Shown: positions 18,898 to 26,511 of the stretch, piece after piece
Layout: each line of letters starts with the position of its first letter
Numbering within the stretch: position 1 is the stretch's first letter
Assembly: GCF_046546535.1 (NCBI RefSeq)
Contig: NZ_JBKGTW010000009.1
Location: 30,529-62,528 of the forward strand
Reading direction: 5' to 3'
Length of the DNA stretch: 32,000 nucleotides
Origin: Neisseria sp. WLZKY-1
GTDB lineage: Bacteria > Pseudomonadota > Gammaproteobacteria > Burkholderiales > Neisseriaceae
Notes under the pieces: model-generated
Told to the model about the DNA's origin: nothing
Databases searched by the model: none
What the model saw: only the letters and a program-made list of their open reading frames with translations
Made by a program: the position numbers and the translations under genes

Positions 18898-18925
18898 ATT
18901 TCGCATAAATTATATTATGTGAAAA
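18898..18925 (+). promoter_or_regulatory. dif-like Xer recombination site, left prophage junction (attL-type hybrid)
   Basis: The site reads ATTTCGCATAA-ATTATA-TTATGTGAAAA. Its XerC arm and spacer are identical to the site at 26484..26511, and its XerD arm carries 2 substitutions. Confidence 0.75.
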
Positions 18926-19013
18926 TTCATTAATTTAGGTAATTTTAGCAGAAAATTGCTAATTACAAATTTCAAAAAAACGAGCAATAAAACAACAGAT
19001 AGAGGGGTGAAAA

Positions 19014-19226
19014 ATGTCAGTAACAAAATTCATGCTGTTCGGATATGGAGCAATAGCAATCTTTGCAACTGCATCAATGATCGGCTTAATTTATTTTGGC
19101 TGCAAAATTGCAGCCAAATACGAAAAAGAGGAAAAAGACAAAAGGGAAGAAGAATTGCGCATAAAACGCAAAACACTCGAGGCACTGGAAAAAATAGCAA
19201 AGCAGACAGAACAGAAAGAAACGTAG
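19014..19226 (+). CDS. Small single-pass membrane protein with a charged helical tail (paralog 1)
   Basis: The 70-aa ORF has a good SD (agaggggtgaaaaATG). An N-terminal TM segment is followed by EKEEKDKREEELRIKRKTLEALEKIAKQTEQK. Confidence 0.65.
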   Translation: MSVTKFMLFGYGAIAIFATASMIGLIYFGCKIAAKYEKEEKDKREEELRIKRKTLEALEKIAKQTEQKET

Positions 19227-19230
19227 AAAT

Positions 19231-19437
19231 ATGGAAACAATCATCAGATGGATTTTTTCGGCAAAAGGCCTAGTATGGATTCTAATTGCATACTTCGTTT
19301 ATTGTGTCTTTTGCGCCACAATAGAAGCAATGGAAAAAATGAAAGAAGAAAAGAGAAAAGAAGAAGAATTAAAAATACAACGTGAAACGCTCGAAGCTTT
19401 ACAGAAAATAGCAAAACAAGGAGAGCAGAAGAAATAA
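19231..19437 (+). CDS. Small single-pass membrane protein with a charged helical tail (paralog 2)
   Basis: The 68-aa ORF starts 4 nt after the stop of paralog 1. Its tail MKEEKRKEEELKIQRETLEALQKIAKQGEQK is clearly homologous to that of paralog 1. Confidence 0.65.
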   Translation: METIIRWIFSAKGLVWILIAYFVYCVFCATIEAMEKMKEEKRKEEELKIQRETLEALQKIAKQGEQKK

Positions 19438-19549
19438 AAAGCGGTTTAGCCGCATAGTTTTTTTTGGCTTCCCCCGCCCTGAGTGGCGGGGTCGGGCTTG
19501 AATTCTGTAAGCGGCCAAAATACACCCGCTAACACAACTCAACTAAAAA

Positions 19550-19610
19550 CTACCGTTTATCTGCGTGGCCATAGGGCTTATGGGCAGATAAACGGTAGTT
19601 TTCATTTTCG
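19550..19610 (+). terminator. Long stem-loop plus T-run
   Basis: The stem ctaccgtttatctgc ... gcagataaacggtag (15 bp, with an inner ccata/tatgg stem) is followed by ttttcatttt. Confidence 0.55.
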
Positions 19611-19667
19611 CACCGGTGTTCTAATCCCTAAGCTCTGCGCCCTCCGGTTGCATTATGCCCCCACCCG

Positions 19668-19711
19668 AAACGGCCGGCCGAAAATAGGCTGATTTTCAGC
19701 CGGCCGTTTTT
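19668..19711 (+). other. GC-rich stem-loop bracketed by CCCACCC / CCCAACCC
   Basis: The 11-bp stem is aaacggccggc ... gccggccgttt, followed by a T-run. Confidence 0.6.
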
Positions 19712-19735
19712 CCCAACCCTTTTTTACCCACCCAA

Positions 19736-19849
19736 AGCATCACAGGCAAAAGGGGAGGGCGGTTTTTCACGGTTTATTTCAAACTGGGATGGAGTTTGAA
19801 AAAACCGCGAACAAACCGCCCACGTTATTCCCCTTTTGCCTGCGATGCT
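19736..19849. repeat. ~114-nt imperfect hairpin, copy A (conserved 65-nt core 19757..19821)
   Basis: The structure has an outer stem agcatcacaggcaaaagggga / tccccttttgcctgcgatgct. The inner stem is gggcggtttttcacggtttatttcaaact / agtttgaaaaaaccgcgaacaaaccgccc, and the loop is gggatgg. Confidence 0.8.
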
Positions 19850-19904
19850 CCCACCCTTTTGAGTCCGGGGAATCCGGCAGAGGGTACAGAAGCGACCCGT
19901 TTCG

Positions 19905-20197
19905 TTACAAGTCCGCCTTGTGGGTGGGCATGGCCGCTGTCAGTCCGGTTATCGCAGGCGTTCATATGGGGTTCCGTGATTAAAAAACCGCGCGGCCAAA
20001 AGCGCAAGGGGTATTCATAACGAAATGTAAACGGCCATGAAAAAGAAATAGTCTTTTTCATGGCCGTTTACATTTCGCTACAAACCTTCCCCTTGCGCTT
20101 TTGGCCGCGCGGTTTTTTCAACACTGCACCCCATACGAACTGCGATAACCGGACTGACAGCTTAGAAACCATGCCCACCCACAAGGCGGACTTGCAA
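19905..20197. repeat. ~293-nt near-perfect palindrome (centre near 20049)
   Basis: Perfect arm blocks of 25, 30, 21 and 23 bp are separated by small internal loops. One example is cgaaatgtaaacggccatgaaaaag/ctttttcatggccgtttacatttcg. Confidence 0.85.
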
Positions 20198-24463: not shown

Positions 24464-24467
24464 AGCT

Positions 24468-24761
24468 TTATCCTTTGTTAGTTACTGGTTTGAAATCGAG
24501 GGCTTTAAATTTTTGTCCTTTGCCGCTAACGACCATTTCAACGGTTAAAACCGCCTCAAATGGGAATGAAATACCTTTAAATCGATCAAAATTGACAGAA
24601 CCGCCAAAATCGTATTCTGTGGAAGACATTCCCAAGGCGTTGCCTTGGCTCTCATCCATTGGAGTTGCTGCGACAATTCGGCAATAGTCAAAATTTTTGC
24701 CGTCAATGTTGCCGTTGAATTTTTTTACGCCCATTACTGTTACTTGAATCGGGAATTGCAT
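24468..24761 (-). CDS. Probable ssDNA-binding protein (pV-like, assigned by position and size)
   Basis: The 97-aa product appears beta-rich and lies immediately downstream of the replication initiator, as in other inoviruses. Confidence 0.5.
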   Translation of the reverse strand: MQFPIQVTVMGVKKFNGNIDGKNFDYCRIVAATPMDESQGNALGMSSTEYDFGGSVNFDRFKGISFPFEAVLTVEMVVSGKGQKFKALDFKPVTNKG

Positions 24762-24812
24762 AGTTTTTTCCTTTGGTTATCGGCAGGCACACAAAGCCAG
24801 CCCGCCATATGG

Positions 24813-26186
24813 CTATAAAAAATATTGGAAGAATTTATAGGCGTTAGCGCCAAAATGTTTCATCCAGTCTTTGCCATAGATTCGTTCACATTTGTCTATG
24901 TCTTCATCAGCAAGATCAATAATATCTTTCAAGAATTCTTTTTCAGTTTCACTTGCCGTTTGAATTTCATTGATCAAACGATATGCGTCTTGCCTTGCCT
25001 GATTTTTTGCTTTGATTACAGGGAATAAGTTTTCATCAATAGATACCTTAGGCATATAGCCATAGTGATCTATGATGAAATCTTTTTCTTGTTCATAATC
25101 AAACTGATGAATATCGTTAGAAGAATCATAGAGTTCAGCCGCAAATCTATGAGGTTTCAGACGTTTAGGAAGCCTTCCTTCCTCATCTGAAAGCATTTCA
25201 TAAATTTGTTCTTTGGTTTTTTTGCCCTGCAATGATTCTTCAATGGCAACCAGCCATTTACCGCACTGGCGTTTGATAAATTCGACACCTTTTTCAAGGG
25301 TCATTTCTAAAATTTTCTTTGCAGAATCAACCTGTTTTGTAACAGGTAATTTGCTGAATTTTTCGCAAATGGGATATGCTCCGCCGAAGTATTCGCCCGG
25401 ATAAAGCAGGGAATCGAAAGGAATTACGATGTCCCTTGCTTTCAATTCGACTTCAAAACGTGTCCAAATGCTGTCCTCATCGCCAAGTTGTTTACCCTTC
25501 TCATACACGCGGACATATCGGGAAGATTCCCGAGAGCCGATATAGTAGGTTTTGCCTTTTTTGGTATCTGATTCCCAATCTGTTCCGACCGATTCACCGG
25601 CGGGCATTTTTGCCCTATGACGGGTAAAAAGGCCGTCCAATCGATCTTGTTTTGCTTGCTCCGGAGAGTATTCGCCATTAAAAAAATCTTTTGCCAAATC
25701 AATACGGGTAATCCTTGCCCCGTGACATTTAATAAGGAAATCGTATAAGCGCTTTTCCCATCCTGTTTTAGCAGCCATGCATCCGGTAGCAGTCAATTCA
25801 ACCAATAAGGTATTGTTTTGCCCGCCAATATGGACACGGCCATATTGAACATCTTTATCGCCCATCTGATAGCAGTGATCGTAAAAACGGCCTCCGCTAT
25901 GGTTGAGTTTGTAGGCGATGCCGAAGCCGAGGATTTTGCAAAGTTGTTCGGAAGCTACTTTTATGTAACTTTCGTCAGAAATCAGAAAAGCTTGTTTTGC
26001 AAACAGACACAGGGAATCAACATTAATTCGGAAAGTTATTTGATCTATAAATGAGGTATCAGAAACGCCACGACGAAGCGGGATAGTCAGTAATTCCCCC
26101 TTAGGACTGACTATCACTTGTTCGTAGTGTTCGAATGTTTCGAAATCGCGTTCAATATCCATTTTGATTATTTCCGAGGAACCCAC
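24813..26186 (-). CDS. Rolling-circle replication initiator (Rep_trans / RstA-like)
   Basis: The product is 457 aa from the GTG at 26186, or 449 aa from the ATG at 26162. Motifs ITRIDLAKDF and YIGSRESSRYVRVYEKGKQLG ... WTRFEVELK are typical of the PF02486-type initiators of filamentous phages. Confidence 0.8.
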   Translation of the reverse strand: MGSSEIIKMDIERDFETFEHYEQVIVSPKGELLTIPLRRGVSDTSFIDQITFRINVDSLCLFAKQAFLISDESYIKVASEQLCKILGFGIAYKLNHSGGRFYDHCYQMGDKDVQYGRVHIGGQNNTLLVELTATGCMAAKTGWEKRLYDFLIKCHGARITRIDLAKDFFNGEYSPEQAKQDRLDGLFTRHRAKMPAGESVGTDWESDTKKGKTYYIGSRESSRYVRVYEKGKQLGDEDSIWTRFEVELKARDIVIPFDSLLYPGEYFGGAYPICEKFSKLPVTKQVDSAKKILEMTLEKGVEFIKRQCGKWLVAIEESLQGKKTKEQIYEMLSDEEGRLPKRLKPHRFAAELYDSSNDIHQFDYEQEKDFIIDHYGYMPKVSIDENLFPVIKAKNQARQDAYRLINEIQTASETEKEFLKDIIDLADEDIDKCERIYGKDWMKHFGANAYKFFQYFL

Positions 26187-26209
26187 TTAGCCCCGCGTTT
26201 GGTAACTTA

Positions 26210-26233
26210 CCCCCCTGTTAGATAGGGGGGGGG
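26210..26233. other. C6 / G9 hairpin containing a 9-nt homopolymeric G tract
   Basis: The sequence cccccc-tgttagata-ggggggggg lies just upstream of the rep start. Confidence 0.7.
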
Positions 26234-26237
26234 TCAC

Positions 26238-26295
26238 GGCCTGCCGCCGCTGTGCGTGCGCGCAAGCGCGCATCCGCACCAGCGGCCAGCAGGCC
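26238..26295. other. 58-nt GC-rich stem-loop in the rep leader (origin or regulatory candidate)
   Basis: The sequence ggcctgccgccgctgtgcgtgcgcgc-aa-gcgcgcatccgcaccagcggccagcaggcc pairs along almost its whole length. It is an isolated GC-rich island within AT-rich phage DNA. Confidence 0.7.
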
Positions 26296-26309
26296 GCCGA
26301 ATGGCCGCA

Positions 26310-26339
26310 AATATAATTAGGAAGCGAAAATAAAGTCAA
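26310..26339 (-). promoter_or_regulatory. Candidate sigma70 promoter for the phage rep/structural operon
   Basis: The minus strand reads TTGACT-N18-TATATT (or N17-TTATAT), located upstream of the GC-rich hairpin and rep. Confidence 0.4.
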
Positions 26340-26483
26340 AAAATATCTTTTAAAATCAATGATTTTAAAAGGCAGGATATTTCAAAGAAAATTGGTTGAA
26401 TGGTAGAATGTTGCGAAACGCAAAAATTGCAAAAGAAGACGGGCTAAGGTTAAGCGGCTGAAAAAACACGGAAATTTAATGTA

Positions 26484-26511
26484 ATTTCGCATAAATTATA
26501 TTATGTTAAAT
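26484..26511 (+). promoter_or_regulatory. Canonical dif site (XerC arm, 6-bp spacer, XerD arm), right prophage junction
   Basis: The site reads ATTTCGCATAA-ATTATA-TTATGTTAAAT. The XerD arm is identical to that of E. coli dif, and the XerC arm has the conserved CGCATAA core. Confidence 0.8.

What the first reader, a model, noticed from the sequence alone, without database searches (positions are those of the whole stretch)
18898..26511. Filamentous prophage in the chromosomal dif site with no recombinase of its own (Xer-exploiting IMEX, unlike Nf/MDA-type neisserial phages)
Between ubiE and glnD the DNA switches abruptly from GC-rich and DUS-saturated to about 7.6 kb of AT-rich sequence with no canonical DUS.

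All structural genes are on the minus strand and are tightly packed or overlapping (TAATG, ATGA and GTGA junctions). In order they are a Rep_trans-type initiator, a 97-aa ssDNA-binding-size protein, a 71-aa ORF, a signal-peptide major coat protein and a 94-aa protein. Then come two micro-ORFs, a Gly/Ser-linker adsorption protein, a pVI/DUF2523-like protein and a Zot/pI-like ATPase. This is the canonical inovirus layout.

The block is bounded by two directly repeated 28-bp dif-like sites. No integrase, transposase or secretin ORF exists in any frame. The filamentous prophages classically described in pathogenic Neisseria (Nf/MDA group) carry a Piv/IS110-type transposase and insert into dRS3 repeats. 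This element instead has the signature of CTX/VGJ/TLC-type IMEXs, or of the dif-flanked gonococcal genetic island. Lacking a secretin, it would presumably exit through a host secretin such as PilQ.
Basis: partly seen in the sequence, partly recalled or inferred. Interest (0 to 1): 0.8.

Follow-up and report, generated by a model that had tools for sequence, protein, structure and literature searches.

The report
Filamentous prophage in Neisseria dif site
A 7.6-kb filamentous-phage genome sits exactly inside the chromosome's dimer-resolution site (dif) of a commensal Neisseria and has no recombinase gene, so it almost certainly borrows the host XerC/XerD enzymes, a trick well known in cholera phages but not yet described for phages of this bacterial family.

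Summary
An AT-rich block free of DNA uptake sequences lies between ubiE and glnD. It encodes a complete inovirus core: Rep_trans, an RstB-like protein, Coat_B, a pIII-like protein, DUF2523 and Zot. Two direct 28-bp dif-like sites lie 7,586 bp apart at its ends.

Ten related contigs with an identical UbiE carry one dif at that spot and no phage. Local GC skew and GGGNAGGG polarity both flip there.

The right site equals the empty-site dif. The left site keeps the host XerC arm and centre but has a phage XerD arm altered only in its outer bases. Relatives in another Neisseriaceae host and in Kingella potus have the same geometry and no recombinase.

More distant relatives, the Nf/MDA-like group, all carry an IS110 transposase after zot and have no dif-like site. 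The Zot tree splits into these two lineages.

The attP design resembles that of the gonococcal genetic island and TLCphi, not CTXphi. No XafT (DUF3653) protein was found.

Verdict: a Xer-exploiting inovirus (IMEX). It is a new member of a known kind, and the searched literature does not describe one in Neisseriaceae. The catalytic pathway and current activity are inferred, not shown. Interest is moderate.

The parts
18898..18925 (+). attL: host XerC arm ATTTCGCATAA, centre ATTATA, phage-derived XerD arm TTATGTGAAAA (changed at positions 7 and 11)
   Evidence: The left flank is identical to the empty sites up to and including the centre.
19014..19226 (+). p70, a small protein with an N-terminal membrane helix and a charged KEEK-rich tail, next to attP; function unknown
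   Evidence: It occurs in 11 lysogen contigs. Homologues at 46-47% identity occur in the L016 and K. potus phages.
19231..19437 (+). p68, a paralogue-like small membrane protein; function unknown
   Evidence: no Pfam family.
19438..20288 (.). Conserved structured non-coding region of the phage, probably origin and/or packaging hairpins; it contains a hairpin of about 300 nt at 19904-20198
   Evidence: It is 88% identical in the L016 phage and 73% in the K. potus phage, and absent from host DNA. Folding of the phage plus strand gives dG -155 kcal/mol, z = -29. Compensatory changes occur at 23 pairs.
20289..20630 (+). p113, an orphan protein on the strand opposite to the core genes; function unknown
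   Evidence: No Pfam or PHROG hit. Apart from near-identical copies of itself, its only homologue is one 110-aa protein at 56% identity; tblastn independently finds a 56%-identical p113 homologue in the K. potus phage loci. The AF2 model has pLDDT 44.
20687..20770 (.). Second copy of an 84-nt hairpin repeat (first copy 19748-19831), lying between p113 and zot; terminator-like
20810..21979 (-). Zot/pI-like assembly ATPase
   Evidence: Pfam Zot 2.6e-37 and PHROG 197 9e-57. It is 100% identical to a protein of Neisseria sp. WLZKY-1.
21988..22272 (-). pVI-like minor coat protein (DUF2523)
   Evidence: Pfam 2.4e-9 and PHROG 1242 7e-15.
22272..23534 (-). pIII-like adsorption protein with a signal peptide, 24-nt tandem repeats (PKPDDGKQ), a Gly/Ser linker and a C-terminal anchor
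   Evidence: Weak PHROG hits cover the C-terminal part. The corresponding gene is annotated as attachment protein in related phages.
23531..23701 (-). Two hydrophobic micro-ORFs of 28 and 24 aa, in the position of pVII/pIX, overlapping their neighbours' start and stop codons
23698..23982 (-). p94, a conserved structural-module protein of unknown function
   Evidence: 93% identity in the L016 phage, 80% in the K. potus phage, 34-67% in more distant relatives.
23989..24231 (-). Major coat protein; the true start is probably the internal ATG, which would give about 66 aa
   Evidence: Pfam Phage_Coat_B 2.2e-6. Relatives are called at 66-67 aa.
24248..24463 (-). p71, a conserved replication-module protein of unknown function
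24468..24761 (-). p97, an RstB-like putative ssDNA-binding protein
   Evidence: PHROG 4994 4e-21. The homologue is annotated as RstB in OR148975.
24813..26186 (-). Rolling-circle replication initiator (Rep_trans)
   Evidence: Pfam 2.6e-28 and PHROG 453 1e-80.
26187..26483 (-). Region upstream of rep, with a promoter-like site (26339-26310) and a conserved C6/G9 hairpin (26210-26233)
26484..26511 (+). attR, the regenerated functional dif: phage XerC arm, centre, and host XerD arm TTATGTTAAAT; 28/28 identical to the ATTATA-allele empty sites

Best explanation
This is an inovirus prophage with a 7,586-bp circular genome. It entered the chromosome by XerC/XerD site-specific recombination between one double-stranded attP and the host terminus dif. 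The attP reads ATTTCGCATAA-centre-TTATGTGAAAA.

Integration regenerates a perfect dif on the rep side (attR), so chromosome dimer resolution is kept. It leaves a hybrid site on the other side (attL). The XerD arm of attL is altered only in its outermost bases.

By analogy with the gonococcal genetic island and TLCphi, the matching centre allows a complete two-step exchange. The altered outer XerD arm would make attL a poor substrate for FtsK-activated excision, which would stabilise the prophage.

Replication would use the Rep_trans initiator and the hairpin-rich intergenic region. Virions would be assembled by Zot/pI and exported through a host secretin, since the phage has none.

Shown here: the anatomy, the precise insertion within dif, the empty sites, the absence of any recombinase, and the same design in relatives. 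Inferred: Xer dependence, the order of strand exchanges, the stabilising role of the altered arm, present-day activity, and the export route.
For: Inovirus gene set.

Both dif-like sites are unique in the window, with zero matches in shuffles.

Ten contigs with an identical UbiE have a single dif exactly at the junction and no phage.

attR equals the empty-site dif. attL has the host flank, the XerC arm and the centre, then a phage arm.

In the L016 host and in K. potus, the host-derived XerC arm at attL (GTTTCGCATAA, AGTTCGCATAA) differs from the phage XerC arm at attR (ATTTCGCATAA). The XerD arms differ in the reverse sense. This maps the crossover to between XerC-arm position 3 and XerD-arm position 6.

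GC skew (+0.109 to -0.049) and GGGNAGGG polarity (11/0 to 0/2) flip at the site.

The window has no transposase or integrase, and nor do the close relatives.

The phage is present or absent among strains of one species and is seen in at least 12 contigs.

The outer-arm changes (positions 7-11 only) match the design reported for GGI1 attP, where FtsK strips XerCD (PMC9226527; PMC5357621).

In L016 and K. potus, the DNA beyond attL is a remnant of another dif-type phage. This is as expected for successive integrations into the regenerated dif.
Against: No circular replicative-form (attP) junction was found in any collection, so neither excision nor current activity is shown.

No XafT/DUF3653-like activator was found. 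How XerD would be activated, or whether XerC acts alone, is therefore open.

The centre alleles at attL and attR vary among lysogens (ATTATA, TTGATA, TTTATA). The pattern does not tell on which side of the centre the crossover occurs.

The host xerC, xerD and pilQ genes lie outside the window and were not examined.

The pIII gene of the second lysogen, L013, appears disrupted in its gene calls.
Confidence: 0.82

Rival explanations
1. The element is the same Xer-exploiting phage, but it integrates as VGJphi does. XerC alone exchanges one pair of strands, and replication resolves the Holliday junction. XerD would have only a structural role.
For: The XerC arm of attP is perfect in all three phages. 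No XerD activator was found. In lysogen L013, attL carries ATTATA and attR carries TTGATA. That fits a crossover on the XerC side if the phage centre is ATTATA.
Against: The defining VGJ feature is a centre mismatched on the XerD side (PMC5357621). It is absent here: the window, L016 and K. potus have identical centres at attL and attR. The two host alleles differ at centre positions 1 and 3, which is the XerC side. Sample ERZ27994516 shows the reverse pattern, with attL TTGATA and attR ATTATA.
Confidence: 0.3
2. The block is a cryptic, domesticated remnant that is no longer able to excise, replicate or make virions.
For: No replicative-form junction was recovered. The pIII gene of L013 looks broken. 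Filamentous prophage remnants occur at other Neisseriaceae dif sites.
Against: All core ORFs in the window are intact and tightly packed. Copies are 98-100% identical in many independent metagenomes. The element is present or absent among strains with identical flanks. The long hairpin is kept by compensatory changes.
Confidence: 0.15
3. Insertion was by another route, and the flanking dif-like repeats are incidental. Possible routes are a trans-acting IS110 transposase from a co-resident Nf-type phage, homologous recombination, or CTX-like single-strand integration.
For: Nf-type phages with IS110 transposases are common in the genus. Strain KEM232 of this species is reported to carry one (PMC7058167).
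Against: The junctions fall inside the 28-bp dif in three different hosts and at three different loci. The element has no IS110-type ends, and no dRS3 target is involved. It has no pair of inverted dif-like sites that could fold into a CTX-type hairpin attP: the best internal matches have 7 or more mismatches out of 22.
Confidence: 0.03

Closest known systems
Gonococcal genetic island (GGI), the IMEX of pathogenic Neisseria
   Same: Both occur in the same bacterial family and insert at the chromosomal dif. Both have one canonical dif and one dif-like site. In both, the XerC arm and centre match, and the XerD arm is changed only in its outer bases. Neither has its own recombinase or a DUF3653 protein (PMC9226527, PMC6744903, PMC5357621).
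   Different: The GGI is a 57-kb island encoding a type IV secretion system, not a phage. This element is a 7.6-kb inovirus. It has 2 changes in the XerD arm, where GGI1 has 4.
TLCphi satellite phage of Vibrio cholerae (TLC-type IMEX)
   Same: Both have a single double-stranded attP with a conserved XerC arm and centre and a divergent XerD arm. In both, the reaction is in principle reversible and regenerates a functional dif, which allows tandem arrays.
   Different: TLCphi encodes XafT (HTH + DUF3653), and its XerD arm does not bind XerD. Here no DUF3653 was found, and the inner six bases of the arm, including G5, are intact. TLCphi is a satellite, whereas this is a complete phage.
VGJphi, and Cf/phiLf, f237, CUS-1/Ypf and the Haemophilus oral inovirus: dif-integrating inoviruses without an integrase
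   Same: All are complete filamentous phages that integrate as double-stranded DNA at dif using host XerCD. None has an integrase (PMC2731167; bioRxiv 10.1101/633727).
   Different: The hosts belong to different families. The VGJ-type attP has a centre mismatched on the XerD side, which is not seen here.
Nf1-4, MDAphi and NgoPhi6-9 filamentous phages of Neisseria
   Same: They share host family, gene order and homologous genes. Identity is 44-58% for Rep, 42-70% for the RstB-like protein and about 47-53% for Zot. None has a secretin.
   Different: They carry an IS110-family transposase just after zot and insert into dRS3 repeats (PMC7058167). This phage has neither. In the same position it has attP, three reverse-strand ORFs and a hairpin region. 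The two groups form separate clades in the Zot tree.
CTXphi
   Same: Both are inoviruses with Rep_trans (RstA-like), RstB-like and Zot genes. Both exploit XerCD at dif.
   Different: CTXphi integrates as folded single-stranded DNA from two inverted dif-like sites, and does so irreversibly. This phage has one direct attP and intact direct repeats at both ends.

Membership tests
Inoviridae (filamentous phage) | Zot/pI-type morphogenesis ATPase | tested here: met
   PF05707 2.6e-37.
Inoviridae (filamentous phage) | Small major coat protein with a signal peptide and one membrane helix | tested here: met
   PF05356 2.2e-6, which is above the gathering score.
Inoviridae (filamentous phage) | Rolling-circle initiator and a compact one-strand gene order: rep, ssb, coat, pIII, pVI, pI | tested here: met
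   Rep_trans 2.6e-28, DUF2523 2.4e-9, and the ORF map.
Inoviridae (filamentous phage) | Production of filamentous ssDNA virions | not testable with these tools
   This needs culture supernatant and electron microscopy.
IMEX (integrative mobile element exploiting Xer) | Inserted exactly at the chromosomal dif and flanked by dif and a dif-like site in direct orientation | tested here: met
   for the sites and empty sites. for the skew and GGGNAGGG polarity switch.
IMEX (integrative mobile element exploiting Xer) | No recombinase of its own | tested here: met
   No Pfam recombinase in any ORF. tblastn with IS110 transposases is negative. Only Rep, pIII and Zot are longer than 200 aa.
IMEX (integrative mobile element exploiting Xer) | Integration and excision depend on host XerC and XerD | not testable with these tools
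   This needs xerC and xerD mutants. The host xer genes are outside the window.
CTXphi-type IMEX | Two inverted dif-like sites about 90 nt apart that fold into a hairpin attP on single-stranded DNA | tested here: not met
   There is no further dif-like site inside the element. The best candidates have 7 or more mismatches out of 22.
VGJphi-type IMEX | Single double-stranded attP whose centre lacks homology to dif on the XerD side | tested here: not met
   The centres of attL and attR are identical in the window, L016 and K. potus. The allele differences lie on the XerC side.
TLCphi-type IMEX | attP with a conserved XerC arm and centre and a divergent XerD arm | tested here: met
   The divergence is mild, at 2-4 outer bases.
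TLCphi-type IMEX | Encodes a XafT-like DUF3653 activator of XerD | tested here: not met
   No DUF3653 hit at E <= 1 in the 9 small accessory and intergenic ORFs scanned, nor at E <= 0.1 in the core ORFs, p113 and p70. A non-homologous activator cannot be excluded.
GGI-type attP design | dif-like site identical to dif except for a few of the outermost bases of the XerD arm; no XafT | tested here: met
   The changes are at XerD-arm positions 7 and 11 in the window, 7-10 in L016 and 7-8 in K. potus. The criterion comes from PMC9226527.
Nf/MDA-type neisserial filamentous phages | IS110/Piv-type transposase gene downstream of zot | tested here: not met
   It is absent from the window. It is present in the saliva inoviruses L001 and L002 and in most Zot-related loci with about 53% identity or less. 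Those lacking it are mostly short or truncated contigs.
Nf/MDA-type neisserial filamentous phages | Insertion into dRS3 repeats | tested here: not met
   The insertion is in dif, and the empty site shows no other repeat.

The most novel reading that the evidence does not exclude
The dif-type lineage of Neisseriaceae inoviruses may use a Xer activation or control factor unrelated to XafT/DUF3653. Candidates are the orphan p113 and the attP-adjacent p70 and p68.

Phage traffic may also be what drives the unusual within-species polymorphism of the dif centre. Lysogens carry three centre alleles (ATTATA, TTGATA, TTTATA) at attL and two of them (ATTATA, TTGATA) at attR, and empty sites carry ATTATA and TTGATA. 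That would point to an exchange, or an arms race, between phage attP and host dif, like the dif1 variants that gate CTXphi in V. cholerae. If so, it could also explain how the GGI integrates.
Probability: 0.15. Interest if true: 0.6.

Novelty: new member of a known kind. Interest (0 to 1): 0.4.

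Why it matters
Filamentous phages of Neisseria (MDA, Nf, NgoPhi) matter for colonisation and invasive disease. All described so far move with their own IS110 transposase.

This element shows that a sister lineage exists in commensal Neisseria and Kingella of the human mouth. That lineage has swapped the transposase for a dif-like attP and relies on host XerCD.

It provides a small, tractable phage model for Xer exploitation in the family that hosts the gonococcal genetic island, whose integration mechanism is still unclear.

It also means that prophage surveys which define neisserial filamentous phages as running from rep to the IS110 transposase will miss this lineage.

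Conceptually it adds no new mechanism.

Tried and rejected
Replicative-form junction. I looked for it in three ways: contigs encoding the attP-adjacent p70, two exact-pattern scans of IMG/VR, and one scan of JGI metagenomes. All junctions recovered were integrated attL sites, so attP could not be read directly.

Function of p113. I tried Pfam and PHROGs, the word-indexed protein search, an exhaustive HMMER search of 1.8 billion representatives and AlphaFold2 (pLDDT 44). The results were only near-identical copies plus one 110-aa homologue at 56% identity, and the model is unusable. No fold search was run on it.

MITE hypothesis. I rejected the idea that the nested inverted repeats at 19.7-20.2 kb are host MITE or Correia-like insertions. 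They are absent from the host DNA available and conserved in the related phages.

Third dif site. I rejected a third internal dif site, and with it a composite of two IMEXs in the window.

Other searches with little yield:
- The genome-contig scan returned only 11 loci, all of the IS110 type or too short to tell.
- Rfam found nothing in the window.
- Looking up the exact Zot protein found no contig on record.
- The Dominguez 2011 GGI paper is not held.
- Flanking haplotypes were not analysed to work out which centre allele is phage-borne.

Full report
**What is in the sequence**

The window is GC-rich (0.59-0.69) and dense in the neisserial DNA uptake sequence, with 49 copies of GCCGTCTGAA against 0.09 expected. 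Between about 18.9 and 26.5 kb, GC falls to 0.30-0.52. No DUS occurs between 18834 and 27500.

The block is bounded by two direct 28-bp sites. The left one, 18898-18925, reads ATTTCGCATAA-ATTATA-TTATGTGAAAA. The right one, 26484-26511, reads ATTTCGCATAA-ATTATA-TTATGTTAAAT. They are the only matches in the window, and none appeared in 100 shuffles. They lie 7,586 bp apart.

The right site matches the N. meningitidis MC58 dif (AGTTCGCATAATGTATATTATGTTAAAT; PMC2731167) at 25 of 28 positions. This includes the whole XerD arm.

**Gene content**

On the minus strand, in order, are:
- a Rep_trans initiator;
- a 97-aa RstB-like protein (PHROG 4994);
- a 71-aa ORF;
- a Phage_Coat_B major coat protein;
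- a 94-aa ORF;
- two hydrophobic micro-ORFs of 24 and 28 aa;
- a 420-aa pIII-like protein with a signal peptide, PKPDDGKQ repeats and a Gly/Ser linker;
- a DUF2523 (pVI-like) protein;
- a Zot/pI ATPase.

There is no integrase, transposase or secretin. Only Rep, pIII and Zot exceed 200 aa. tblastn with the IS110 transposases of related phages finds nothing.

It holds three plus-strand ORFs and an 850-bp non-coding region. The ORFs are p70 and p68, small membrane proteins next to attL, and p113. The non-coding region includes a hairpin of about 300 nt.

This region is part of the phage, not host repeats. It is 88% and 73% identical in two related phages and absent from the host DNA available. 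On the phage plus strand the hairpin folds at -155 kcal/mol with z = -29. It is maintained by 23 compensatory pairs. It is most likely an origin or packaging signal.

**Is it in the chromosomal dif?**

A look-up of the window's exact UbiE protein returned ten contigs from the same species. One is the complete genome CP022527.1, Neisseria sp. KEM232, which PMC7058167 reports as assigned to 'N. chenwenguii' by rMLST.

In all ten, ubiE is followed directly by glnD. The intergenic DNA holds a single dif, flanked by exactly the sequences that flank attL on the left and attR on the right in the window. The insertion is therefore precise and lies within dif.

Host GC skew is +0.109 to the left of the site and -0.049 to the right. 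The KOPS-like motif GGGNAGGG is 11 plus / 0 minus on the left and 0 plus / 2 minus on the right. The empty-site locus shows the same trend. Both results fit a replication-terminus dif. The right flank is short, however, and no whole genome could be analysed.

**Junction anatomy**

attR is 28/28 identical to the empty-site dif of the ATTATA allele. attL keeps the host flank, the XerC arm and the centre, but carries a foreign XerD arm, TTATGTGAAAA.

Three independent relatives have the same geometry:
- A second lysogen of the same species at the same locus (L013).
- A phage with 85% Zot identity in another host, lying between an OpuAC-like gene and cysG (L016). Its attL is GTTTCGCATAA-TTTATA-TTATGTGGGAT and its attR is ATTTCGCATAA-TTTATA-TTATGTTAATT.
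- A phage with 67% Zot identity in Kingella potus CP091516.1, between gdhA and pdxJ. Its attL is AGTTCGCATAA-TTTATA-TTATGTGTAAT and its attR is ATTTCGCATAA-TTTATA-TTATGTTAAAT.

In the last two, the XerC arm at attL differs from the phage XerC arm at attR. The XerD arms differ the other way round. This places the crossover between XerC-arm position 3 and XerD-arm position 6, that is, at or around the 6-bp centre, as Xer recombination requires.

None of these relatives encodes a recombinase.

**Which kind of IMEX?**

Definitions are taken from PMC5357621, PMC6744903 and PMC9226527.

It is not CTX-type. There is no second, inverted dif-like site, and the best internal candidates have 7 or more mismatches.

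It is not VGJ-type. The centre is not mismatched on the XerD side.

The design matches TLCphi and, more closely, the gonococcal genetic island. The XerC arm is perfect, the centre matches, and the XerD arm is altered only at positions 7-11. The inner TTATGT is intact.

GGI1 attP is reported to differ from dif by 4 bp within the 6 outermost bases of the XerD arm. That difference lets FtsK strip XerCD and prevents excision (PMC9226527). All three phages here share the T7-to-G change.

The TLC hallmark, a XafT/DUF3653 protein, was not found. No hit appeared at E <= 1 in the small accessory and intergenic ORFs, nor at E <= 0.1 in the core ORFs. So the element works like an IMEX of the GGI/TLC design, but the catalytic route is not established. 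It could be FtsK-activated XerD, an unknown activator, or XerC alone.

**Relation to known neisserial filamentous phages**

The nearest deposited phages are saliva inoviruses (OR148975, OR148976 and OR148969). Identity is 46-57% for Rep and about 50% for Zot. They carry a transposase between zot and rep. Pfam confirms it as IS110 family, with DEDD_Tnp_IS110 and Transposase_20.

I surveyed 78 IMG/VR loci and 11 genome loci. Nearly every locus with Zot identity of about 53% or less has this transposase directly after zot and no dif-like site. These include loci from N. weixii, N. shayeganii, N. sicca, N. flavescens, N. lactamica, N. perflava and Snodgrassella sp. The few without it are mostly short or truncated contigs. 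With three apparent exceptions whose identity was measured over only part of Zot (L099, L117, L118), loci with higher identity lack the transposase.

A neighbour-joining tree of 94 full-length Zot proteins splits at the midpoint root into two clades. One is transposase-free and holds all the dif-flanked elements. The other is the IS110 clade.

The genomes are mosaic. The replication module is closer to the IS110 phages, and the coat module is closer to a second dif-type sublineage.

**Population observations**

Empty sites carry two centre alleles, five ATTATA and five TTGATA.

Among 12 lysogen contigs, attL has ATTATA in eight, TTGATA in three and TTTATA in one. attR has ATTATA in the window and L021, and TTGATA in L013.

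L013 combines attL ATTATA with attR TTGATA. Two contigs from one sample, ERZ27994516, combine attL TTGATA with attR ATTATA. They may or may not come from one genome.

This pattern shows that centres are shuffled between the sites. It does not reveal the crossover side.

In L016 and in K. potus, the DNA just beyond attL is related to the dif-proximal end of the second dif-type phage sublineage (84-93% identical in L016, about 70% in K. potus). This suggests a remnant of an earlier IMEX, and hence successive integrations into the regenerated dif. No distal dif-like site was found for these remnants.

**Activity**

The core ORFs are intact. Near-identical copies (98-100% Zot identity) occur in several independent oral metagenomes. 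The exact Zot protein is annotated in an isolate, Neisseria sp. WLZKY-1.

No replicative-form junction was recovered. Present-day mobility is therefore inferred only from the presence/absence polymorphism.

**Novelty**

Four full-text searches found no description of a dif-integrated filamentous phage in Neisseriaceae. The only IMEX reported for the family is the GGI.

One survey of neisserial filamentous prophages defined them as running from rep to the IS110 transposase (PMC7058167). That definition would miss this lineage.

dif-integrating inoviruses without integrases are long known in Vibrio, Xanthomonas, Yersinia, E. coli and Haemophilus. This is therefore a new member of a known kind.

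I rate interest at about 0.4. It is a clean and useful case with some intriguing population detail, but it is not a new mechanism.

Noticed in passing
window 26495-26500 and 18909-18914; L003-L012, L013, L021, L100-L108, L120: The 6-bp centre of dif is polymorphic within one species. Empty sites split 5 ATTATA to 5 TTGATA despite an identical UbiE. Lysogens carry ATTATA, TTGATA or TTTATA at attL, and ATTATA or TTGATA at attR. dif is normally invariant within a species. This may reflect exchange with phage attP, or selection against integration.
   Followed up: partly
window 19904-20198 (hairpin) within 19438-20288: The phage plus strand folds into a near-perfect hairpin of about 300 nt (dG -155 kcal/mol, z = -29). 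It is conserved in the L016 and K. potus phages with 23 compensatory pairs. That is unusually long for an inovirus packaging or origin hairpin.
   Followed up: partly
L016 10000-10660; L018 13920-14091: Beyond attL of the related prophages lies a fragment related to the dif-proximal end of a second dif-type inovirus sublineage (L025-L033): 84-93% identical in L016 and about 70% in L018. This suggests a tandem IMEX array or remnant at Neisseriaceae dif sites, as in V. cholerae. No distal dif-like site was found.
   Followed up: partly
L034 581-608 and 8863-8890: Another transposase-free relative (Zot 55% identity; IMG genome 2617271245) is flanked by dif-like sites with different centres (GGATAA and TGTATA). 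Both sites are preceded by the same 40-nt sequence, so the repeat extends well beyond the XerC arm.
   Followed up: no
window 26210-26233: A C6...G9 hairpin (CCCCCCTGTTAGATAGGGGGGGGG) lies just upstream of rep. It is conserved in relatives L022, L023 and L024 and may be a Rep recognition or nick site.
   Followed up: no
window 19014-19437 and 20289-20630: Three reverse-strand accessory ORFs have no known family. They are p70 and p68, with a membrane helix and a KEEK-rich tail, and the orphan p113. They occupy the place of the transposase in Nf-type phages. p113 has only one detectable homologue, a 110-aa protein at 56% identity.
   Followed up: yes
window 20810-26186 compared with L001-L099: The phage is modular. 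Rep, p97 and p71 are 56-67% identical to some IS110-type phages. Coat and p94 are 54-67% identical to the second dif-type sublineage, whose Rep is only 35-39% identical.
   Followed up: partly
window 1-18897 versus 26512-32000: GGGNAGGG, the E. coli KOPS motif, is strictly polar toward dif in this Neisseria: 11/0 on the left and 0/2 on the right. It may serve as the FtsK-orienting sequence here as well.
   Followed up: partly
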